The position numbers and the translations under genes are program-made. This document shows, in pieces, positions 132-12,358 of a DNA stretch of 23,490 nucleotides. The stretch lies in the IMG/VR virus record IMGVR_UViG_2563366807_000007, positions 1-23,490 of that record; one strand, written 5' to 3'. Source of the DNA: a virus (lineage: Duplodnaviria; Heunggongvirae; Uroviricota; Caudoviricetes). Below the pieces are notes generated by a model. It worked only from the letters and a program-made list of their open reading frames with translations. It was not told the origin of the DNA and made no database searches. Positions within the stretch are counted from its first letter, which is position 1. Every line of letters begins with the position of its first letter.

Positions 132-746
132 GTGATGAATAAAAAATATGAACTGGTTGTTAAGGGGATAAATAATTACGGGGATAAGGTTACTGTTACT
201 GTGAAGTCGGAAGGTGACGGGCAAGCGTCGCTGTTGTTGCCAGATGTGGCGATTAGTCTTGACCGTACTGAAGGTGCCACGCTGGAGTTTTACGAAGCTG
301 AGGCGAAAAAGCAGGCGAAGCAGTTTTTCATGGATGTTGCTGCCGGGTTATGTGAATGGAACGAACCGTTGCCGGAAAAGCGCCCCGTAATTTTAGAGGC
401 GCAGGATGTGTTGATAACCTACAAAGGAAAGCTACCGGGAAGAATTACTTGTTCTCTGAAGATGCCGCCGTCAACACTGCGGTCAGAAAAAGATGATGTT
501 GAATCACGTATTGAAAAACTGGAGAGCTACGTCGTTGAGCTGAATAAGAAATGGTCGATATTGGTGCCTTCTGGCGATGAAAAGCAGTTTGCTGCGTTTG
601 ACGATTATTGTCGGAAAGTGATGAGCAGAAATCTCGCAGAGTGTTTCAGTATTCATAATGATAATTTCAGTGACCCGGAATGGGAGTGTAACCGGCCATC
701 CTTTGTTGTATCCGGTGATGCGTATTACCGTGAAGGAGATCGGTGA
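132..746 (+). CDS. Hypothetical protein between holin and endolysin; 3' end interrupted by the IS21-family insertion (last few codons and the stop are IS-derived)
   Basis: 204-codon ORF from the track with a GTG/ATG start at 132/135 overlapping the holin stop. No recognisable motif. The left end of the IS (about 731) falls inside the last codons, so the native C-terminus is missing. Confidence 0.5.
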   Translation: MMNKKYELVVKGINNYGDKVTVTVKSEGDGQASLLLPDVAISLDRTEGATLEFYEAEAKKQAKQFFMDVAAGLCEWNEPLPEKRPVILEAQDVLITYKGKLPGRITCSLKMPPSTLRSEKDDVESRIEKLESYVVELNKKWSILVPSGDEKQFAAFDDYCRKVMSRNLAECFSIHNDNFSDPEWECNRPSFVVSGDAYYREGDR

Positions 747-803
747 GTAACATCGATGGAGATCGGTTCGTGTCACTTTCACAGAACCGTTTTTAAATTA
801 CCT

Positions 804-1553
804 TCACTGATCTCCTTCGGTCAACGGAGATTGTATTTTCCGCATTGATTCTCCTTTAAGTTCGATCTTGATACTGCCATGAACCAGTCGATCTAGGATG
901 GCATCCGCATGTGTGGAGTCTCCGATCATTTTGTACCAGTTTTCCACCGGCAACTGGCTCACTACGATGATTGAGCCTCGTTGGTACATCAGATCCACTA
1001 TTTCCAGCAGGTCGCTACGCTGTTCTGATGAGAGAGGTTCCAGCCCCCAGTCATCCAGAAGCAGCAGATCGCTATTATTCAGCCTGGTCAAAAGTTTGCT
1101 GTATCTTCCATCAGCATGCCCCTGATAGCACTGTTCCATCAGCGCTTTAAGGCGATAATAGTAGACCTTGTATCCCTGTCGGCAGGCATTATGACCAAGT
1201 GCACATGCCAGGAACGTTTTACCGCTGCCGGTGGCCCCGGTCAGTAAAATATTTTGTTTCAGGGTTAACCAGTTTCCCTGACTGAGTGAACGGATGAGGG
1301 CCCTGTCCAGCCCTCTATTGTTACGATAATCCAGCTTTGATAACTCAGCATTAAGTCTGAACCGTGCATGTTTGATCAGACGCTCTGCCTTCCTGTTTTC
1401 ACGGCAGGTTAGTTCTTCTGCTGTCAGTAATGACAGGCGTTCTTCGAAGCCCAGCTCCTGGTATGTGCCCGGTTGAGCAAGTTGCTTTTTAAGCGCATCA
1501 CGGAAGCCGGTGAGTTTAAGTGCGGTCAGTTGTTCGTAAAGATGATTCATCAT
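804..1553 (-). CDS. istB: IS21-family helper ATPase IstB
   Basis: 249 aa. Walker A LLTGATGSGKTF and Walker B LLLLDDWG, with the overall IstB/DnaC-like AAA+ layout. Lies immediately downstream of istA on the same strand. Confidence 0.9.
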   Translation of the reverse strand: MMNHLYEQLTALKLTGFRDALKKQLAQPGTYQELGFEERLSLLTAEELTCRENRKAERLIKHARFRLNAELSKLDYRNNRGLDRALIRSLSQGNWLTLKQNILLTGATGSGKTFLACALGHNACRQGYKVYYYRLKALMEQCYQGHADGRYSKLLTRLNNSDLLLLDDWGLEPLSSEQRSDLLEIVDLMYQRGSIIVVSQLPVENWYKMIGDSTHADAILDRLVHGSIKIELKGESMRKIQSPLTEGDQ

Positions 1554-1564
1554 TGGATCCCGTA

Positions 1565-3106
1565 TCAGTGGTAATACTCACTGCCGCGTACGTTTTCGTG
1601 TTCCATCGTGGATAACAGATCTGGTTTTGGATCCTGAACAGGTTGTTTATCCAGACCTTTTTCCAGGATCGATTTAATACCTGACAGACGCCATACCTTT
1701 GTTTTCAGAGCTCTTGCACATGCTGCATTAAGTCTGGCTTTACTGTATTTTTTATGAAGGTTCAGGAGTCCAAGGCAGAAGCGATAGCTTTGTTCCGGAT
1801 GTGGACGAGAGTTCAGTATATGAAGCACATAACTATGAGTTTCACTGCCTATGTGCCCCGCCCATTCCAGAAGACGCTCTGGCGTCCAGGTGGCATGCTG
1901 TCGATGAGCTTCAGGCATGTGCTCGTTGCGGGTACTGTAGCCATAAGTACGCTTGCGCGGGTGCACAGCAACCTCCTGCCCCTGATTGAAGAGTCTTACC
2001 AGTTCTCCGGAGATCCATGCTTCCAGTTGCTGGCCTAACAGCGAACATGGAACCGAGTAGTAATGTTTGTCGATTTCCACGTGGTAATCGGCATGAACTC
2101 TGACTTTCTTCACCAGGGTGTAACTGTAACTGGCTTCAGGAAGAGGCTTCAGTGCGGGTTTATCAAGCTGGATGAAGAGTTCTGCACGTGAATAACCCAA
2201 CTTCTGCATTATTTTGTTATTCAGTCTTTCCAGCAACTCCCGAATGCGCTGATTAAGCGATGCAAGGCTGTAGAAGATCTCATGCCTGATTCGGGCCATG
2301 ATCCAGCGTTCAACAACCTGAACGCCAACTTCAGCTTTGGCTTTATCTTTCGGTTTACGTGGCCGCGCAGGCAAAACTGCGACATTATAATGCTCAAGCA
2401 TCTGCTGGTAGGTAGGGTTAACGTCAGGATCATACTTACATGCCCTGGATGTGGCGCTTTTCAGATTGTCCGGAACAACAAGTTCAGGAACGCCACCCAA
2501 CCACTGGAAGCAGCGAACATGACTCATCACCCAGTCTTCAAGCTGCTGAGACCAGGTGGCCTCTGCCCATGTGTAACTTGATGCCCCGAGAACAGCTACG
2601 ATGACCTGAGCAGTTCTTATTTCTCCGGTCTCAGGGTCGGTAACGCCAACGGTAGGTCCACAGTAATCAACGAAAAGTTTTTCGCCAGCTTTATGTACCT
2701 GACGCATTGATGGTGAAGTGGTTTTGAGCCATTCACGGTACATCCGGCAGTAATGGTTATAGCTGTAAAAACCGCCTGGATTACGCTCACAGTATTCTTC
2801 CCAGAGTAGCTGCAGCGTCACGCATTTATTACGCAGTTCCCGGTGTACTGTAGCCCAGTCAGGCAGAGAGTGCTTCTTCATCTTAACCTGGGTCTGAAGG
2901 AACGCATGTTTTAGTTTTGTATCATCCCATCCTGTAGGTAAGGGCCACTGCTTTATGCCAAGTTGAGCCGCCCGATTAGCATATCTGGATACAACGGAAG
3001 GGGAGATTGCAAGACTACGACCAATTTGTCGATGGCTGAGTCCAACACCGTATTTAAGCCTAAGAATTTCTTTAAGTTTTCTCATAGAAATTGGAACTGT
3101 TGGCAT
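1565..3106 (-). CDS. istA: IS21-family transposase IstA
   Basis: 513 aa. N-terminal helix-turn-helix (LSHRQIGRSLAISPSVVSRYANRA) followed by a large integrase/DDE-type catalytic region. Gene order istA then istB is typical of the IS21 family. Confidence 0.9.
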   Translation of the reverse strand: MPTVPISMRKLKEILRLKYGVGLSHRQIGRSLAISPSVVSRYANRAAQLGIKQWPLPTGWDDTKLKHAFLQTQVKMKKHSLPDWATVHRELRNKCVTLQLLWEEYCERNPGGFYSYNHYCRMYREWLKTTSPSMRQVHKAGEKLFVDYCGPTVGVTDPETGEIRTAQVIVAVLGASSYTWAEATWSQQLEDWVMSHVRCFQWLGGVPELVVPDNLKSATSRACKYDPDVNPTYQQMLEHYNVAVLPARPRKPKDKAKAEVGVQVVERWIMARIRHEIFYSLASLNQRIRELLERLNNKIMQKLGYSRAELFIQLDKPALKPLPEASYSYTLVKKVRVHADYHVEIDKHYYSVPCSLLGQQLEAWISGELVRLFNQGQEVAVHPRKRTYGYSTRNEHMPEAHRQHATWTPERLLEWAGHIGSETHSYVLHILNSRPHPEQSYRFCLGLLNLHKKYSKARLNAACARALKTKVWRLSGIKSILEKGLDKQPVQDPKPDLLSTMEHENVRGSEYYH

Positions 3107-3290
3107 AGGTATCCTTTACCGGAATGGCAAAAGATACAGATCAACACACCTGTGAAGTTCCAATAACATTGATGGAGATCACTGAATAACAAAATGAGTC
3201 AAAAGTGATCTCCATCGATGTTATTCAGCGATCTGTTCAAATGTTATTACCCGATCTCGATGGAAGTTATTGAGTGATCTCCTTTCATGA

Positions 3291-3611
3291 AAATACGCAG
3301 GTGATGCTGGGAAAATAACCATCTCAGAAAATGGGAAAGTAACACCTCCATCGCACCAGCACAGTGAGGAGCTCATTGAATTTGCCATTGATTACCTGAA
3401 GAACAATAAAAAGCAGGGGCTGATGAAGCGCGTTGGCCGTTGCATGGGATATCTTCAGGTAGCCGCTGAGATTGAAGCGCTGGCCAGTGGTGCTGATAAG
3501 GATGCAATTGTGCGGGAGGCTCTTCTTCGTGATTTTAATACTCCACCCTTTAAAAAAGGGCCGGCTTACTGGCTTCATCCGGGGCTGACTTATCTTAAAG
3601 TGCGTATTTAG
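3291..3611 (+). pseudogene. 3' gene fragment to the right of the IS, possibly the C-terminal remainder of the gene at 132..746
   Basis: The frame is open from the IS right flank (KYAGDAGKITISENGK...) to the stop TAG at 3609-3611, with no start codon or RBS at its 5' end. It is in the same frame register (mod 3) as the ORF at 132..746. Alternatively a 62-aa ORF could start at ATG 3423. Confidence 0.35.
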
Positions 3612-5136: not shown

Positions 5137-5446
5137 GTTTTGTTGATGCGCCGTATCGTCGCTATATTCCCTCATTAACAGAGACCGCAGCCCGACAGGG
5201 AGACTCCTCTGCGCGAGTGTGCGGGGATAATTAAAAACGATGCACACCGGGTTTTTACCGCGTTAATGATTCGCGGGTTTATCCCGGTGCGATGGTGGAA
5301 GAAACAGGAAGCTGTATTACAGAAAGTGCTACTACTGTATCCCGATGCGATGTATGTAATGTGAGTCAGATAATGGCACAGGATGTGGTGATGTGGCAGT
5401 CTGGAACACAGGATATATTGTCAGAATAAGACCCGTAGGAATAAAA

Positions 5447-5773
5447 ATGAAAAGACGCCTTTTACTACTTTTTCTGTTATCTGTCCTGGCAGTGGGATGC
5501 TCGCAGCAAAAAGCTGATGAGCCCCGGCAATTAGTGACGGTGTATCCACGATATCCGGAATATGCTGCAGCAAATTATATCAAGGGGCTGGTTGAGGTTA
5601 AGTTCGATATTGGTGCTGATGGGACTGTGACACGGATCGTTTTTCTCCGCTCAGAGCCTCATAATTTGTTTCGTGATGAAGTGGTGAAGGCCATGGCGAA
5701 ATGGCGATTTGAAAAGAATCGCCCCTGTCAGGGAGTGAAGAGACAATTTATCTTTACGCCGTCACGTCCTTGA
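5447..5773 (+). CDS. Lipoprotein with a TonB C-terminal-like domain (moron)
   Basis: 108 aa. Signal peptide MKRRLLLLFLLSVLAVGC with lipobox AVGC and Ser at +2. The remainder (YPEYAAANYIKGLVEVKFDIGADGTVTRIVFLRSEPHNLFRDEVVKAMAKWRFEKNRP) aligns motif by motif with the E. coli TonB C-terminal domain ([11 protein letters not shown]..DGRV....[24 protein letters not shown]). Confidence 0.7.
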   Translation: MKRRLLLLFLLSVLAVGCSQQKADEPRQLVTVYPRYPEYAAANYIKGLVEVKFDIGADGTVTRIVFLRSEPHNLFRDEVVKAMAKWRFEKNRPCQGVKRQFIFTPSRP

Positions 5774-6388: not shown

Positions 6389-6536
6389 TTGATGATGCCT
6401 CTGTGTGAAATGACGGTAAACGACGCACTTGTGCCGGCACATAATAGCAAGCACCATAATAGATCAGATTCGATTCTTGCTGTAAGTGATAATTATTCTC
6501 GTTTTCGGGTCCTTTCCGTCGATCCAACAGGTTACG

Positions 6537-6548
6537 GGGCGGCGACCT
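6537..6548. other. cosN: cosN: 12-nt cohesive-end sequence GGGCGGCGACCT, matching the lambda cos sequence as recalled
   Basis: Sequence GTTACGGGGCGGCGACCTCGCGGGTTTTCGCTATTTATGAAAATTTTCCGG matches, from memory, the junction of the lambda right and left genome ends. It sits about 185 bp upstream of the terminase small-subunit gene. Confidence 0.8.
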
Positions 6549-6700
6549 CGCGGGTTTTCGCTATTTATGAAAATTTTCCGGGAACCATGTCCGGTTTCTC
6601 TTCAAGTTAACTATATGAAAAATAAAAAAAGAGGTCTTCTGTGAACCGGACATGCACAAAAAATAGACATGTAAGCCGGACATGACCGGTTTTGTTGTGA
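6549..6700 (+). promoter_or_regulatory. cosB: cosB-like terminase binding region: three copies of CCGGACATG (one inverted) flanking an AT-rich putative IHF site
   Basis: CATGTCCGG at 6586-6594 (inverted), CCGGACATG at 6646-6654 and 6676-6684, with an AT-rich segment (TTAACTATATGAAAAATAAAAAAAG) between the first and second. This mirrors the lambda R3-I1-R2-R1 arrangement. Confidence 0.6.
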
Positions 6701-6731
6701 TTGTGAAGTGAGAGTTTTTGCGAGGTGAGGA

Positions 6732-7241
6732 GTGGCTACGCAGACTGAAGTTGCCAGGCATTTAAGTCTGACCGATCGCCAGCTTCGCAGATTGCAGAAA
6801 TTGCCGGGTGCCCCGATATCGAATAAGCGAGGGCAACTGGATCTGGATGCCTGGCGCGATTTTTACATATCGTATCTGAGAAGAAGTAAAAACGATGTGC
6901 CTGATGGCGATAGCGAAGACGACTATGAGGAGAAATTGCTTATTGCCAGATGGGAACTGACAGCAGAACAGGCTGTTACACAGCAGTTAAAAAATGAGGT
7001 GTCAAAAGGAAAACTTATTGATACCGGGTTCTGTATTTTTGCCCTCAGCAAGCTGGCAATGGCGTTATCCAGTACGCTTGATTCCATCCCTTTATCCATG
7101 CAGCGACAGTTTCCTGATTTAACACCGCGCCATCTTGACCATCTGAAAACCCTTATTGCGAAGGGGGCAAATCAGTGTGCGCGGGCGGGGGATAAATTAC
7201 CGGATTTACTCGATGAATATATCAGAGCAACAACTGAATAA
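6732..7241 (+). CDS. nu1: Terminase small subunit (lambda Nu1-like)
   Basis: GTG start with RBS GAGGTGAGGAG. The segment TGFCIFALSKLAMALSSTLDSIPLSMQRQFPDLTPRHLDHLK aligns with lambda Nu1 (TAFCTFVLSRIAGEIASILDGLPLSVQRRFPELENRHVDFLK). It lies downstream of cos and its 3' end overlaps the start of A. Confidence 0.9.
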   Translation: MATQTEVARHLSLTDRQLRRLQKLPGAPISNKRGQLDLDAWRDFYISYLRRSKNDVPDGDSEDDYEEKLLIARWELTAEQAVTQQLKNEVSKGKLIDTGFCIFALSKLAMALSSTLDSIPLSMQRQFPDLTPRHLDHLKTLIAKGANQCARAGDKLPDLLDEYIRATTE

Positions 7242-9141
7242 TATGATGAGTGCTGTCACAACAGCATTACAGCCCCTGATAAGGGCATTGCCGGTGACGC
7301 CAGTTGAATGGGCTGATCAAAATTATTATCTGCCTAAAGAATCTTCATATGGTGAGGGAGAATGGAAAACGCTGCCGTTCCAGATCGCCATCATGAACAG
7401 CATGGGGAATGATCAGATCCGGACTGTTAATCTGATTAAATCTGCCCGTGTTGGCTATACAAAGATGTTGCTGGGGGTGGTCGGGTATTTTATTGAGCAT
7501 AAATCCCGAAACAGTCTGCTTTTTCAGCCCACGGATTCTGCCGCTGAAGATTTTATGAAGTCTCACGTGGAGGCGACGATTCGGGATGTGCCATGTCTGA
7601 AAGACCTTTTTCCATGGCTGGGGCGTAAACATCGTGACAATACCCTCACGCTGAAACGCTTTTCATCGGGTGTGGGTTTCTGGTGCCTGGGCGGCGCTGC
7701 CGCCAAAAACTACCGTGAAAAATCCGTGGACGTGGTCTGCTATGACGAACTTTCCTCGTTCGAACCGGATGTCGAAAAAGAGGGTTCGCCAACCCTGCTT
7801 GGGGATAAACGTATTGAGGGCTCTGTATGGCCCAAATCCATTCGCGGCTCGACGCCTAAAATCAAAGGCACCTGCCAGATCGAAAAAGCGGCCAACGAGT
7901 CGGCGCATTTCATGCGTTTTTATGTGCCCTGCCCACACTGTGGGGAGGAGCAGTATCTGAAATTTGGCGATGAATCCACGCCTTTTGGCCTTAAATGGGA
8001 GAAGGACAGCCCCGAAAGCGTTTTCTACCTCTGTGAACATCATGGCTGCGTGATCCATCAGTCTGAGCTTGACCAGAGCAACGGGCGGTGGATCTGTGAA
8101 AACACGGGGATGTGGACCCGTGACGGTCTGACGTTTTTCAGCGCCGCGGATAATGAAATTCCGCCGCCGCGCTCCATCACGTTCCATATCTGGACAGCGT
8201 ACAGTCCGTTCACCACCTGGGTACAGATAGTCTATGACTGGCTGGATGCACTGAAAGATCCCAACGGCCTGAAAACCTTTGTGAACACCACGCTGGGCGA
8301 GACCTGGGAAGAGGCCGTGGGCGAAAAACTCGATCACCAGGTGCTGATGGATAAGGTTGTGCGTTACACGGCGGCGGTGCCTGCCCGGGTGGTTTATCTG
8401 ACGGCGGGCATTGACTCGCAGCGAAACCGTTTTGAGATGTATGTCTGGGGATGGGCACCGGGAGAGGAAGCTTTTCTGGTGGATAAAATCATCATTATGG
8501 GGCGTCCTGATGAGGAAGAGACGCTGTTACGTGTGGATGCGGCGATCAACAAAAAATACCGCCATGCGGATGGCACCGAAATGACCATTTCCCGTGTCTG
8601 CTGGGACACCGGGGGGATCGATGGTGAAATCGTCTACCAGAGGTCAAAAAAACACGGTGTTTTCCGTGTGCTGCCGGTAAAAGGCGCGTCTGTCTATGGC
8701 AAGCCGGTGATCACCATGCCGAAAACCCGCAATCAGCGGGGCGTTTATCTGTGTGAAGTGGGGACGGACACCGCAAAAGAAATTCTCTATGCCCGTATGA
8801 AAGCCGAGCCCACGCCTGCGGATGAAGCCACGTCGTATGCCATCCGTTTTCCTGATGATCCGGAGATTTTTTCGCAGACAGAGGCGCAGCAACTGGTCGC
8901 GGAAGAGCTTGTGGAGAAGTGGGAAAAAGGAAAGATGCGTCTGCTGTGGGATAACAAAAAGCGGCGTAACGAAGCGCTGGACTGCCTGGTGTATGCCTAC
9001 GCGGCATTACGTGTGTCCGTGCAACGCTGGCAGCTTGATCTGGCTGTACTGGCAAAATCCCGGGAAGAAGAGACGACCCGGCCAACCCTTAAAGAACTGG
9101 CAGCGAAGCTGTCCGGAGGAGTGAATGGTTACAGTCGCTGA
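7213..9141 (+). CDS. A: Terminase large subunit (lambda gpA-like)
   Basis: 642 aa. Collinear high-identity match to lambda gpA (VEWADQNYYLPKES, KNYREKSVDV, LGDKRIEGSVWPKSIRGSTPK, TAYSPFTTWVQIV, WDNKKRRNEALDC). True start is ATG 7213; the track ORF from 7156 over-extends. Confidence 0.95.
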   Translation: MNISEQQLNNMMSAVTTALQPLIRALPVTPVEWADQNYYLPKESSYGEGEWKTLPFQIAIMNSMGNDQIRTVNLIKSARVGYTKMLLGVVGYFIEHKSRNSLLFQPTDSAAEDFMKSHVEATIRDVPCLKDLFPWLGRKHRDNTLTLKRFSSGVGFWCLGGAAAKNYREKSVDVVCYDELSSFEPDVEKEGSPTLLGDKRIEGSVWPKSIRGSTPKIKGTCQIEKAANESAHFMRFYVPCPHCGEEQYLKFGDESTPFGLKWEKDSPESVFYLCEHHGCVIHQSELDQSNGRWICENTGMWTRDGLTFFSAADNEIPPPRSITFHIWTAYSPFTTWVQIVYDWLDALKDPNGLKTFVNTTLGETWEEAVGEKLDHQVLMDKVVRYTAAVPARVVYLTAGIDSQRNRFEMYVWGWAPGEEAFLVDKIIIMGRPDEEETLLRVDAAINKKYRHADGTEMTISRVCWDTGGIDGEIVYQRSKKHGVFRVLPVKGASVYGKPVITMPKTRNQRGVYLCEVGTDTAKEILYARMKAEPTPADEATSYAIRFPDDPEIFSQTEAQQLVAEELVEKWEKGKMRLLWDNKKRRNEALDCLVYAYAALRVSVQRWQLDLAVLAKSREEETTRPTLKELAAKLSGGVNGYSR

Positions 9142-10920: not shown

Positions 10921-12358
10921 TCTTTCACACATTATTGCCGCAGCATTCAATGAACCGCTGCTTCTGGAGCCCGCCTATGCGCGGGTTTTCTTTTGCGCGC
11001 TCGGGCGCGAGATAGGGGCAGCAAGTCTTTCGGTACCACAACAACAGGTACAGCTTGATGCTCCCGGAATGCTGGCTGAAACGGACGAGTACATGGCCGG
11101 AGGTAAACGACCGGCCCGTGTTTACCGGGTGGTGAACGGTATTGCTGTACTGCCGGTGACCGGCACGCTGGTGCACCGGCTGGGCGGTATGCGGCCATTT
11201 TCCGGAATGACAGGCTATGACGGCATTGTCGCCTGTCTTCAGCAGGCAATGGCGGATAGCCAGGTGCGGGGCGTACTGCTGGACATTGACAGTCCGGGCG
11301 GGCAGGCCGCCGGCGCGTTTGACTGCGCTGACATGATTTACCGCCTCCGTCAGCAGAAGCCGGTCTGGGCACTGTGCAATGACACTGCCTGTTCTGCAGC
11401 CATGCTGCTGGCGTCGGCCTGCTCCCGACGGCTGGTTACCCAGACATCCCGTATCGGCTCCATTGGCGTGATGATGAGCCATGTCAGCTATGCCGGTCAT
11501 CTGGCGCAGGCCGGTGTGGATATCACGCTGATTTATGCCGGGGCGCACAAGGTGGATGGCAATCAGTTTGAAGCGTTGCCGGCAGAGGTTCGCCAGGACA
11601 TGCAGCAGCGGATTGATGCGGCGCACCGGATGTTTGCCGAAAAAGTGGCGATGTATACCGGGTTGTCTGTGGATGCGGTCACGGGAACAGAGGCCGCCGT
11701 TTTTGAAGGTCAGTCCGGCATTGAGGCCGGGCTGGCGGATGAATTAATCAATGCGTCGGATGCCATCAGTGTGATGGCCACGGCGCTGAACAGTAATGTC
11801 AGAGGAGGCACTATGCCGCAATTAACTGCAACGGAAGCCGCCGTGCAGGAGAACCAGCGAGTGATGGGGATCCTGACATGCCAGGAAGCGAAAGGACGTG
11901 AACAGCTTGCCACGATGCTGGCAGGGCAACAGGGCATGAGCGTTGAACAGGCCCGGGCGATTCTGGCCGCGGCGGCACCGCAGCAGCCGGTGGCATCCGC
12001 GCAGAGTGAAGCCGATCGCATTATGGCGTGTGAAGAAGCGAACGGTCGTGAACAACTGGCGGCTGCACCACTGGCGGATGCCGGGCCCTCACTTCGTGAT
12101 CAGATCATGGCCCTGGATGAGGCAAAAGGGGCAGAAGCGCAGGCTGAAAAACTGGCGGCCTGCCCGGGAATGACCGTGGAGAACGCCCGGGCTGTGCTGG
12201 CTGCGGGATCAGGTAAGGCCGAACCGGTCTCTGCATCCACAACCGCCCTGTTTGAACATTTCATGGCGAATCATTCACCGGCAGCGGTGCGGGGTGGCGT
12301 GTCACAGACGTCAGCAGACGGTGATGCGGACGTGAAAATGCTCATGGCCATGCCATGA
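10910..12358 (+). CDS. C: Head maturation protease / scaffold (lambda gpC-like, S49 peptidase family)
   Basis: GTG start overlapping the end of B. The N-terminal two-thirds match lambda gpC (AFNEPLLLEPAYARVFFCAL). The C-terminal third is Ala/Gln-rich scaffold-like sequence with internal repeats. Confidence 0.9.
   Translation: MRRNLSHIIAAAFNEPLLLEPAYARVFFCALGREIGAASLSVPQQQVQLDAPGMLAETDEYMAGGKRPARVYRVVNGIAVLPVTGTLVHRLGGMRPFSGMTGYDGIVACLQQAMADSQVRGVLLDIDSPGGQAAGAFDCADMIYRLRQQKPVWALCNDTACSAAMLLASACSRRLVTQTSRIGSIGVMMSHVSYAGHLAQAGVDITLIYAGAHKVDGNQFEALPAEVRQDMQQRIDAAHRMFAEKVAMYTGLSVDAVTGTEAAVFEGQSGIEAGLADELINASDAISVMATALNSNVRGGTMPQLTATEAAVQENQRVMGILTCQEAKGREQLATMLAGQQGMSVEQARAILAAAAPQQPVASAQSEADRIMACEEANGREQLAAAPLADAGPSLRDQIMALDEAKGAEAQAEKLAACPGMTVENARAVLAAGSGKAEPVSASTTALFEHFMANHSPAAVRGGVSQTSADGDADVKMLMAMP
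11813..12358 (+). CDS. nu3: Putative nested scaffolding protein (lambda Nu3-like), in-frame internal start within C
   Basis: In-frame ATG at 11813 preceded by a strong RBS AGAGGAGG (11801-11808). Lambda Nu3 is produced the same way from the 3' part of C. The region encodes low-complexity helical repeats. Confidence 0.5.
   Translation: MPQLTATEAAVQENQRVMGILTCQEAKGREQLATMLAGQQGMSVEQARAILAAAAPQQPVASAQSEADRIMACEEANGREQLAAAPLADAGPSLRDQIMALDEAKGAEAQAEKLAACPGMTVENARAVLAAGSGKAEPVSASTTALFEHFMANHSPAAVRGGVSQTSADGDADVKMLMAMP

What the first reader, a model, noticed from the sequence alone, without database searches (positions are those of the whole stretch)
6480..6731. Intact cos site: lambda-type cosN with three CCGGACATG repeats in cosB
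The 12-nt cohesive-end sequence GGGCGGCGACCT and about 45 flanking nucleotides match lambda cos as I recall it, but the downstream terminase-binding region differs. It has three copies of CCGGACATG (one inverted at 6586-6594, direct at 6646-6654 and 6676-6684) around an AT-rich putative IHF site, echoing lambda R3-I1-R2-R1. Together with an apparently intact Nu1/A terminase, this suggests a packaging-competent cos with its own cosB specificity.
Basis: partly seen in the sequence, partly recalled or inferred. Interest (0 to 1): 0.4.

Follow-up and report, generated by a model that had tools for sequence, protein, structure and literature searches.

The report
Lambda-type cos site, uncharacterised cosB specificity
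This is the DNA-packaging start site (cos) of a lambda-like E. coli prophage: its cutting site is identical to lambda and phage 21, but its terminase-docking boxes and the matching DNA-binding domain of the small terminase subunit form a common recognition pair that I did not find described in the searchable literature.

Summary
GGGCGGCGACCT lies at 6537-6548. Exact identity to lambda runs 6527-6581. CCGGACATG occurs exactly three times in the window, all in cosB.

In 13 loci with distinct TerS sequences (45-81% identical to the window's), the layout is conserved: cosQ, cosN, I2, a forward box (core TCCGGTT, bp 54-60) and an IHF core at a fixed offset. In the 12 enterobacterial ones an inverted box follows exactly 54 bp later. 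The spacers vary freely.

The third box is optional. When present it has the R2 orientation, unlike lambda and 21.

The cognate TerS (6732-7241) is Nu1-like only from residue 49. Its N-terminal domain has no sequence match to Nu1, but its model best matches solved lambda-type TerS DNA-binding domains.

Residue 20 of the predicted recognition helix tracks box base bp 53 without exception across 15 TerS types (R with G; D/N/T with T). TerS relatives carrying an N15/Monarch-type N-terminal domain have N15/Monarch-type boxes instead.

The module is in 21% of complete E. coli genomes and in five PhiR12 phage records.

Caveat: this window's prophage has an IS21-family insertion in its lysis region. 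No biochemical test was possible.

Verdict: a new variant of a known kind, of moderate interest.

The parts
6507..6513 (+). cosQ (GGGTCCT), the packaging-termination subsite
   Evidence: The window is 100% identical to phage 21 here. The curated phage 21 record OL657228 annotates cosQ at 42902-42908, which is -30..-24 from the left end and maps to 6507-6513. GGGTCCTTTCC is conserved in all relatives.
6537..6548 (+). cosN cohesive-end 12-mer GGGCGGCGACCT; inferred nicks at 6536/6537 (top strand) and 6548/6549 (bottom strand)
   Evidence: Single exact match in the window. Identical to the lambda and phage 21 left ends. Nick positions are inferred by homology, not measured.
6566..6580 (+). I2-equivalent block (TATGAAAATTTTCCG)
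   Evidence: Maps onto the IHF I2 site annotated at 196-210 in phage 21 record M81255. TTATGAAAATTT is nearly invariant in relatives.
6586..6601 (+). R3 box CATGTCCGGTTTCTCT (bp 50-65 from the left end); invariant core TCCGGTT at bp 54-60
   Evidence: Same position as lambda and phage 21 R3, bp 50-65 (PMC9026076; OL657228 annotation).
6608..6620 (-). I1-equivalent IHF core (TTTCATATAGTTA on the minus strand), followed on the plus strand by an A-rich tract
   Evidence: Two mismatches to WATCAANNNNTTR. Most relatives have a core with 0-1 mismatches at the same fixed offset. The lambda I1 sequence quoted in the OL657228 annotation, AAACATTAAGTTA, also has two mismatches by my count.
6639..6654 (-). 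R2 box (CATGTCCGGTTCACAG read on the minus strand), inverted relative to R3
   Evidence: Perfect 11-nt inverted repeat with R3. The core-to-core distance is 54 bp in the window and in all 12 enterobacterial relatives.
6669..6684 (-). R1 box (CATGTCCGGCTTACAT read on the minus strand), same orientation as R2 and 30 bp after it
   Evidence: A third box in the same orientation is present in PhiR12_1, L022 and L030 (30 bp after R2) and L012 (42 bp). It is absent in L014, L016, L018, L024, L027 and L028.
6732..7241 (+). [quoted passage not shown]
   Evidence: Pfam Phage_Nu1 E = 1e-18, covering residues 49-150 only. The N-terminus MATQ is invariant in homologues. RefSeq annotates the identical gene as terminase small subunit. 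Structure models.
7213..9141 (+). Large terminase subunit TerL (gpA type), overlapping the end of the TerS gene
   Evidence: Pfam GpA_ATPase 4.3e-56 and GpA_nuclease 8.2e-72, both near full length. The start is taken from the RefSeq annotation of the ATCC 25922 copy, which is identical to the window over 6400-7300.

Best explanation
Window 6507-6731 is the cos site of a lambda-like prophage. It is built on the lambda plan but uses a different recognition pair. The proposed mechanism, by analogy with lambda, has three steps. [quoted passage not shown] IHF bound at I1 (bp 72-84) bends the DNA so that the two boxes face each other. Second, the Nu1-like C-terminal part of TerS holds the gpA-type TerL over cosN. 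TerL nicks 12 bp apart and produces 5' cohesive ends GGGCGGCGACCT. Third, cosQ serves termination at the next cos. R1 is an accessory site, present only in some relatives and oriented like R2. Shown here: the sequence anatomy; its position-specific conservation; co-variation of the boxes with the TerS N-terminal domain; intact terminase genes; presence in deposited phage genomes. Inferred: actual TerS and IHF binding; the nick positions; a specificity separate from lambda, 21 and N15.
For: (1) cosQ, cosN and the I2 block are identical or nearly identical to phage 21 and lambda. (2) R3 lies at bp 50-65, exactly where lambda and 21 have R3. (3) Across 12 non-redundant loci (the window and 11 relatives) the conserved blocks are cosQ, the left half of cosN, I2, A(T/C)xTCCGGTT, the IHF core and AACCGGA. 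The spacers vary. (4) The R3-to-R2 core distance is 54 bp in the window and all 12 enterobacterial relatives, and in most the IHF core sits 11 nt after the R3 core. (5) TerS residue 20 lies in the second helix of the model (residues 15-22). It tracks box base bp 53 without exception: R with G in 6 TerS types, D/N/T with T in 9. (6) Natural swap control: L007/L008 TerS is 71% identical over residues 26-169 but has a different N-terminal domain. Its cosB carries GGTTGTTGTT boxes, the N15 R3 sequence quoted in PMC4669245, behind the same cosQ, cosN and I2. (7) The DBD model (pLDDT 83.6) has 7lw0_A as its best PDB match (TM 0.62), with 6hn7_B (TMq 0.72), 7lwr, 7lxs and 1j9i also in the top 50. All five are lambda-type TerS DNA-binding domains. 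(8) TerS and TerL are intact. Five PhiR12 phage records, whose listed hosts are laboratory strains, carry a 99.4% identical TerS and the same boxes. (9) The cosB segment is in 1,147 of 5,426 complete E. coli genomes.
Against: There is no direct evidence of binding, cleavage or packaging for this cos type. The residue-20/bp-53 correlation may reflect only two lineages, and cosB lies directly next to the DBD-coding DNA, so linkage alone could produce it. Foldseek E-values are all above 0.1, and the hhalign probability against the lambda Nu1 DBD is 3.6%. The window's IHF core has 2 mismatches, which is weaker than in most relatives. The prophage in this window has an IS21-family insertion between the holin-side genes and the lysozyme gene, so this copy may never be used by its own phage.
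Confidence: 0.85

Rival explanations
1. The site has the same specificity as phage 21. The boxes are slightly diverged phage 21 R boxes (CATGTCGG versus CATGTCCGG) and are read by 21-type terminase, so this is not a separate specificity.
For: Phage 21 R3, R2 and R1 share the core (C/T)(A/G)TGTCGG. That differs from the window box by one inserted C. The DNA left of R3 is 98-100% phage 21.
Against: Phage 21 gp1 matches the window TerS only over residues 64-166, at 39.8%. The N-terminal domains are not alignable by sequence. The shared motif lies 3 bp closer to cosN here than in phage 21 (window C50-G58, phage 21 C53-G60). Published work reports that a 3-bp deletion between cosN and cosB already causes a severe packaging defect (PMC9026076). 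The invariant core in this family is TCCGGTT, not TGTCGG.
Confidence: 0.08
2. The true third site is the forward copy CATGACCGGTTT at 6681-6692, which overlaps the third exact 9-mer. That would give the canonical lambda/21 arrangement of R3 forward, R2 inverted, R1 forward.
For: This copy is 92% identical to the first 12 nt of R3 and has the same orientation. Lambda, 21 and the Monarch-type loci L007/L008 have a forward R1.
Against: In relatives that keep a third box, the inverted copy is the one preserved. In L022 the inverted copy retains TCCGGTT (TATGTCCGGTTGG), but the forward reading is degraded to CATAGCCGATTTT. In L030 the forward reading is CATGAGCGCAC. In L012 only an inverted copy exists.
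Confidence: 0.07
3. The site is a fossil. The cos is intact in sequence only because the prophage was acquired recently, and it is no longer used because the prophage is defective.
For: An IS21-family element (about 2.58 kb, 719/722-3299) interrupts the lysis region of this copy. The ATCC 25922 copy has pseudogenes in its early region. Truncated TerS relics exist in L005/L006.
Against: This concerns this prophage copy, not what the element is. Position-specific conservation across genera, intact TerS and TerL, and PhiR12 phage records with the same module show that the cos type is under selection and in use. A co-resident or superinfecting phage of the same specificity could still cut it.
Confidence: 0.1
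4. The R3/R2 inverted repeat acts as a nucleic-acid hairpin, either an RNA structure in the late transcript or a DNA cruciform, rather than as protein-binding boxes.
For: The arms are 11 nt and perfectly complementary. R3 and R2 change together between relatives, which a stem would also require.
Against: The RNA fold of 6575-6700 is not exceptional: z = -1.68, and 11 of 200 shuffles fold at least as well. A stem does not explain the fixed distance from cosN, the conserved IHF core in the loop, the third box in direct orientation, the co-variation with a TerS residue, or the swap of boxes together with the DBD.
Confidence: 0.03

Closest known systems
Phage 21 cos (cosQ-cosN-I2-R3-I1-R2-R1; M81255, OL657228)
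   Same: cosQ, cosN and the left flank are identical. R3 is at bp 50-65. An IHF site lies between R3 and an inverted R2. There are three boxes, and TerS starts about 190 bp from the left end (bp 196 here, 189 in phage 21). The box core resembles CATGTCGG.
   Different: The box has one extra C and lies 3 bp nearer cosN. R2 and R1 sit closer in (bp 103-118 and 133-148 here, 107-122 and 150-166 in phage 21). R1 is inverted. The TerS N-terminal domain is not alignable with gp1.
Phage lambda cos and gpNu1/gpA terminase
   Same: Exact identity over 6527-6581, including the cohesive end. The subsite plan is the same. TerS is Nu1-like from residue 49 (about 46% identity over residues 73-164). TerL is gpA type. 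The predicted DBD fold matches solved Nu1-type DBDs.
   Different: The R boxes are unrelated in sequence (lambda CGTTTCC... versus CATGTCCGGTT). The DBD is undetectable by Pfam, PDB sequence search or hhalign. R1 is inverted and optional.
N15 and Monarch-type cosB (Feiss et al. 2015, PMC4669245)
   Same: There is the same dichotomy between a complex cosB (R3-I1-R2-R1) and a simple cosB (R3 plus a remote inverted rR2 inside the TerS gene about 200 bp away). In this family the enterobacterial prophages have the complex form. Aeromonas phage phiARM81ld and Pseudomonas phage LPPA33 have the simple form.
   Different: N15 and Monarch boxes are GGTTGTTGTT and their DBD differs. Here the box core is TCCGGTT.
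Escherichia phages PhiR12_1, _2, _2_star, _4, _5 (PV340549-PV340554)
   Same: TerS is 99.4% identical and the R3, R2 and R1 boxes have the same spacing. These are the only records among 50,697 phage genomes with this DBD at high identity.
   Different: cosB is about 90% identical overall, with differences confined to the spacers. The left flank of cosN is not phage-21-like. The records are not deposited starting at cos. I found no publication describing them.

Membership tests
Lambda-like cos site (cosQ-cosN-cosB) | cosN: a 12-bp cohesive-end sequence with conserved flanking bases at both nick sites | tested here: met
   GGGCGGCGACCT at 6537-6548. Exact identity to lambda over 6527-6581 and to phage 21 on the left.
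Lambda-like cos site (cosQ-cosN-cosB) | cosQ heptamer about 24-30 bp upstream of the left nick | tested here: met
   GGGTCCT at 6507-6513, equivalent to the annotated cosQ of phage 21. Conserved in all relatives.
Lambda-like cos site (cosQ-cosN-cosB) | R3 box at about bp 50-65 from the left end | tested here: met
   The box lies at 6586-6601 (bp 50-65). The core TCCGGTT at bp 54-60 is invariant in the window and the 12 enterobacterial relatives.
Lambda-like cos site (cosQ-cosN-cosB) | IHF site I1 between R3 and R2 | tested here: inconclusive
   The core at 6608-6620 has 2 mismatches to WATCAANNNNTTR. Most relatives have a core with 0-1 mismatches at the same offset. IHF binding was not measured.
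Lambda-like cos site (cosQ-cosN-cosB) | R2 in the opposite orientation to R3 | tested here: met
   Perfect 11-nt inverted repeat. The 54-bp spacing is invariant.
Lambda-like cos site (cosQ-cosN-cosB) | R1 in the same orientation as R3 (as in lambda, 21, phi80, Gifsy-1) | tested here: not met
   The conserved third box has the R2 orientation and is absent in about half of the relatives. N15 already shows that the family tolerates loss of R1 and R2 (PMC9026076).
Lambda-like cos site (cosQ-cosN-cosB) | Terminase cuts here to give 12-nt 5' cohesive ends | not testable with these tools
   This needs virion DNA end sequencing or in vitro cos cleavage.
Nu1-type small terminase subunit (Pfam PF07471) | Central oligomerisation and C-terminal TerL-binding region homologous to Nu1 | tested here: met
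   PF07471 E = 1e-18, 67.9 bits (cut-off 30), covering residues 49-150. tblastn gives about 46% identity to lambda Nu1 over residues 73-164.
Nu1-type small terminase subunit (Pfam PF07471) | N-terminal winged-HTH DNA-binding domain related to the Nu1 DBD (1J9I) | tested here: inconclusive
   Sequence level: no match, and hhalign probability is 3.6%, although in register. Fold level: the top PDB match and four others in the top 50 are lambda-type TerS DBDs with TM 0.55-0.72, but all E-values exceed 0.1.
Nu1-type small terminase subunit (Pfam PF07471) | The gene lies directly downstream of cosB and overlaps a gpA-type TerL gene | tested here: met
   TerS 6732-7241 and TerL 7213-9141.
Documented cosB specificities: lambda, 21, N15/Monarch | R-box consensus and TerS recognition domain of that class | tested here: not met
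   Lambda boxes are CGTTTCC..., phage 21 boxes are CATGTCGG..., and N15/Monarch boxes are GGTTGTTGTT. The window box is CATGTCCGGTT. None of these TerS proteins aligns with window residues 1-58.

The most novel reading that the evidence does not exclude
This is a fourth major packaging-specificity class of lambda-like phages, and a very common one, defined by a TCCGGTT box and a MATQxEVA-type winged-HTH domain. Within the class, a single recognition-helix residue (position 20) paired with a single box base (bp 53) sets at least two mutually exclusive sub-specificities: R with G, and D/N/T with T. The class also exists in both cosB architectures: the complex R3-I1-R2(-R1) form in enterobacterial prophages, and the N15-like simple form (R3 plus an intragenic rR2) in Aeromonas and Pseudomonas phages. 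If so, it is a natural system for studying how packaging specificity and cosB architecture evolve, and for working out which co-resident prophages in E. coli, including O157:H7, can package one another.
Probability: 0.4. Interest if true: 0.5.

Novelty: new variant of a known kind. Interest (0 to 1): 0.38.

Why it matters
Packaging specificity decides which co-resident prophages, satellites and cos-bearing plasmids a lambdoid phage can mobilise. The specialist literature counts only three documented specificities (lambda, 21, N15) and remarks on how little diversity has been studied (PMC4669245). This cosB and TerS pair is in about one fifth of complete E. coli genomes, including O157:H7 EDL933 and ATCC 25922. 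I did not find it described. It offers a simple, testable candidate recognition rule: residue 20 against bp 53. It also shows a parallel to the N15/Monarch split between simple and complex cosB. The underlying mechanism is the textbook one, so this extends an existing model and does not change it.

Tried and rejected
- The genome-contig scan with the TerS alignment returned only 7 loci, and most lacked this DBD. I used exact-protein contig look-ups instead. Four of those 7 loci later served as a swap control.
- A PDB sequence search with the TerS profile found nothing meaningful.
- Pfam on residues 1-58 gave only a sub-threshold Sigma70_r3 hit.
- The fold search with the full-length model was dominated by long helices and gave only weak MerR and excisionase hits. 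A DBD-only model was needed.
- I found no publication for the PhiR12 phages.
- Searching papers for the box strings returned only p53 sites and primers. A search for cosB together with O157 returned only the PICI paper, which does not describe this cosB.
- The forward-oriented third box was considered and rejected because it is not conserved.
- The RNA or DNA hairpin reading was considered and rejected.
- I looked for an N15-like intragenic rR2 copy in the window's TerS gene and found none. The nearest TCCGGTT is at 7763, in TerL.
- The motif-level similarity to phage 21 boxes, and the apparent extension of the R/N versus G/T rule to phage 21 (R21, G at bp 56) and lambda (N21, T at bp 56), is noted only as a lead. 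The motif register differs by 3 bp, and published genetics assigns bp 56 to residue 24.

Full report
**1. What is in the sequence**

GGGCGGCGACCT occurs once in the window, at 6537-6548. Aligned with the joined ends of lambda, the window is exactly identical from 6527 to 6581. That is 10 nt to the left, plus 45 nt to the right counted from the first base of the cohesive end. Left of cosN the window is identical to phage 21 for at least 166 nt. This stretch includes the heptamer GGGTCCT at 6507-6513. The curated phage 21 genome annotates the same heptamer as cosQ at -30..-24 from the left end.

CCGGACATG occurs exactly three times in 23,490 bases, at the stated positions and strands. The boxes are longer than the 9-mer. 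R3 and R2 form a perfect 11-nt inverted repeat, CATGTCCGGTT / AACCGGACATG. R2 and R1 form a 15-nt direct repeat spaced 30 bp apart. One small correction: the 45 nt of lambda identity includes the 12-mer.

**2. Surroundings**

The next gene (6732-7241, GTG start, 169 aa) hits Pfam Phage_Nu1 at E = 1e-18, but only over residues 49-150. The following gene has near-full-length gpA ATPase and nuclease domains. After it come gpW, a lambda-family portal, an S49 protease, gpD, gpE and FI.

The ATCC 25922 chromosome has a copy 100% identical over window 6400-7300 and 99.3-99.8% identical over the rest of the window outside the insertion. There the segment sits in a prophage with a complete lambda-type head and tail operon. 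RefSeq annotates TerS and TerL as intact, with TerL starting at the position equivalent to window 7213.

In the window itself, an IS21-family element lies between the DUF1327 gene and the lysozyme gene. IstA is at 1565-3106 and IstB at 804-1553, both on the minus strand. The element is about 2.58 kb, spans 719/722-3299, ends in TGCGTATT...AATACGCA, and is flanked by a GGTGA(TGC) repeat. The ATCC 25922 copy lacks it.

**3. Comparison with the reference cos sites**

The published geometry is as follows. Lambda R3 spans bp 50-65, the subsite order is R3-I1-R2-R1, and R2 is opposite in orientation to R3 and R1. [quoted passage not shown] The curated phage 21 record places R3 at 50-65, I1 at 74-86, R2 at 107-122, R1 at 150-166 and the TerS start at 189.

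In the window the equivalent elements are:
- R3 at bp 50-65 (6586-6601)
- an IHF-like core at bp 72-84 (6608-6620, minus strand, 2 mismatches to WATCAANNNNTTR)
- R2 at bp 103-118 (6639-6654, inverted)
- a third box at bp 133-148 (6669-6684, inverted)
- the TerS start at bp 196

The phage 21 boxes share the core CATGTCGG. The window box is CATGTCCGG, and this shared motif sits 3 bp closer to cosN.

**4. Are the boxes functional? Comparative evidence**

I retrieved 13 loci with distinct TerS sequences, 45-81% identical to the window's, from Klebsiella, Salmonella, Citrobacter, Enterobacter, E. coli and metagenomic assemblies. PhiR12_1 (99.4%) was added as a fourteenth.

Stacked without gaps on the R3 core, the conserved blocks are:
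- cosQ (GGGTCCTTTCC)
- ACGGGG at the left nick
- TTATGAAAATTT (I2)
- A(T/C)xTCCGGTT at bp 51-60
- TAA...TTGA (the IHF core)
- AACCGGA at bp 108-114

The spacers, and the right half of the 12-mer, vary freely. The distance from the R3 core to the R2 core is 54 bp in the window and in all 12 enterobacterial relatives. In most of them the IHF core sits at the same offset with 0-1 mismatches.

The third box is present only in the window/PhiR12, L022 and L030 (30 bp after R2) and L012 (42 bp after R2). It always has the R2 orientation. In L014, L016, L018, L024, L027 and L028 the TerS start follows R2 by only 37-80 bp and there is no third box.

The forward-reading overlap CATGACCGGTTT at 6681-6692 would restore a lambda-like R1 orientation. 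It is degraded in L022 and L030, so I reject it.

**5. Who reads the boxes**

Among 50,697 phage records, only the five PhiR12 phages have this TerS over its full length (99.4%). Lambda, 21, N15, phi80 and Gifsy-1 align only from about residue 60 onward, at 34-47%.

Residues 1-58 have no Pfam match, no PDB sequence match, and only a very weak alignment to the lambda Nu1 DBD, though that alignment is in register. A model of residues 1-58 (pLDDT 83.6) has helices at 4-10, 15-22 and 38-54, with a loop or wing between the second and third. Its best PDB match is 7lw0_A (TM 0.62). Also in the top 50 are 7lwr_A, 6hn7_B (TMq 0.72), 7lxs_A and 1j9i. A sequence search with the lambda Nu1 DBD shows that all five are lambda-type TerS DNA-binding domains. 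The E-values all exceed 0.1, so this supports the same fold class without proving it.

Two further observations link the domain to the boxes.

First, residue 20, in the second helix, tracks box base bp 53 without exception. R20 goes with xATGTCCGG in the window, P0021, P0025, P0026, P0034 and P0036. D, N or T at position 20 goes with A(T/C)TTCCGG or CTTCCGG in P0010, P0013, P0014, P0022, P0028, P0033 and P0086, and in phages LPPA33 and phiARM81ld. That is 6 against 9, with no exception. By my own arithmetic, the chance of so clean a split is about 2e-4 if the loci were independent. They are not independent, and cosB is physically adjacent to the DBD-coding DNA. I therefore treat this as consistent with a direct readout, not as proof.

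Second, there is a natural swap. L007/L008 TerS is 71% identical to the window's over residues 26-169 but has a different N-terminal domain (MAFLLNKSDMASSIGISVQAFDKWG...). Behind the same cosQ, cosN and I2, its cosB carries GGTTGTTGTT boxes, arranged forward, IHF site, inverted, forward. That is the N15 R3 sequence quoted in PMC4669245. So the boxes and the domain exchange together.

**6. Mechanism**

The best-supported reading is the lambda mechanism with a different recognition pair. A TerS DBD dimer bridges R3 and R2 across an IHF-induced bend. The Nu1-like C-terminal part anchors gpA-type TerL on cosN. Staggered nicks give the GGGCGGCGACCT cohesive ends. cosQ serves termination, and R1 is accessory.

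The anatomy, conservation and co-variation are shown here. Binding, nick positions and exclusivity of specificity are inferred.

Rivals, with my estimates:
- phage 21 specificity: 0.08
- a forward-oriented R1: 0.07
- an unused fossil in this particular prophage: 0.1. This does not conflict with what the element is.
- a nucleic-acid hairpin: 0.03. The fold z-score is -1.68, and 11 of 200 shuffles fold at least as well.

**7. Extension beyond E. coli**

The record for Aeromonas phage phiARM81ld starts with a cohesive-end-like GGGCGTTAGACC. It has ATTTCCGGTTCCGGTT at bp 52-67, a TerS start at bp 79, and an inverted copy (AACCGGAAATGG) inside the TerS gene at bp 251. Pseudomonas phage LPPA33 has the same arrangement. 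This matches the simple cosB plus remote rR2 described for N15, whose rR2 lies at bp 249-260, but with this family's box and domain. So the family, like N15/Monarch, exists in both a simple and a complex cosB form.

**8. Prevalence and novelty**

The cosB segment 6583-6760 is present in 1,147 of 5,426 complete E. coli genomes, with up to 4 copies per genome. It is also present on 9 PLSDB plasmid records. O157:H7 EDL933 and ATCC 25922 encode the same TerS protein, WP_000235436.1.

The specialist literature states that three specificities have been documented among characterised lambda-like phages: lambda, 21 and N15 (PMC4669245). I found no paper describing this box or domain. The library lacks most subscription journals, so prior description cannot be excluded.

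I classify this as a new variant of a known kind. The plan and mechanism are textbook. The recognition pair, the inverted and optional R1, and the two sub-types are not. Interest is moderate (0.38).

Noticed in passing
window 719-3299: An IS21-family insertion sequence (IstA 1565-3106 and IstB 804-1553, both on the minus strand). It ends in TGCGTATT...AATACGCA and is flanked by a GGTGA(TGC) direct repeat. It is inserted in the DUF1327/ydfR-like gene between the holin side and the lysozyme gene, and the ATCC 25922 copy lacks it. It may block late transcription of this prophage.
   Followed up: partly
window ~12056-12063: A 57-bp in-frame length difference in the S49 protease/scaffold (gpC-like) gene relative to ATCC 25922, lying between CTGGCGGC repeats. 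The window has the shorter allele (ORF of 482 aa, against a 1,506-bp CDS in ATCC 25922).
   Followed up: partly
window 5393-5773: A TonB C-terminal-domain protein is encoded between the Rz lysis gene and cos. It looks like a moron. RefSeq annotates the ATCC 25922 copy as a TonB family protein.
   Followed up: no
window ~6582-6585: A mosaic junction. Up to about 6584 the window is 98-100% phage 21. From the R3 box onward it belongs to a different module, shared with the PhiR12 phages at about 90% through cosB and 96.6% through the TerS and TerL genes. The recombination joint falls at the I2/R3 boundary.
   Followed up: partly
loci L012-L030, bp 1-12 of each cos: The inferred cohesive-end 12-mers of relatives differ mostly in their right half, for example GGGCGACGCGCT, GGGCGGCAGCGT and GGGCGGCGTCCG. 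The left half and ACGGGG at the nick stay constant. This fits the functional asymmetry of cosN reported by Feiss et al. (PMC4669245).
   Followed up: no
L018, L024, L027, L029 (P0086), L034 (LPPA33), L035 (phiARM81ld): R3 region: Several of the T-type R3 boxes are doubled in tandem, as TCCGGTTCCGGT(T), with the core repeated at a 6-bp offset. In the loci that have an R2, it is single. I have no explanation for this.
   Followed up: no
L005 and L006 (Shigella flexneri and E. coli), around 2477-2806: TerS relics that retain only residues 68-169, at 94% identity. The upstream reading frame looks like a transposase. The cosB and DBD part appears to have been lost to an insertion element.
   Followed up: no
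L036 (O157:H7 EDL933), 333-647: In EDL933 a PerC-family regulator gene lies about 700 bp upstream of the same TerS gene. It may be a pch-type virulence regulator. If so, virulence-linked O157 prophages use this cos type.
   Followed up: no
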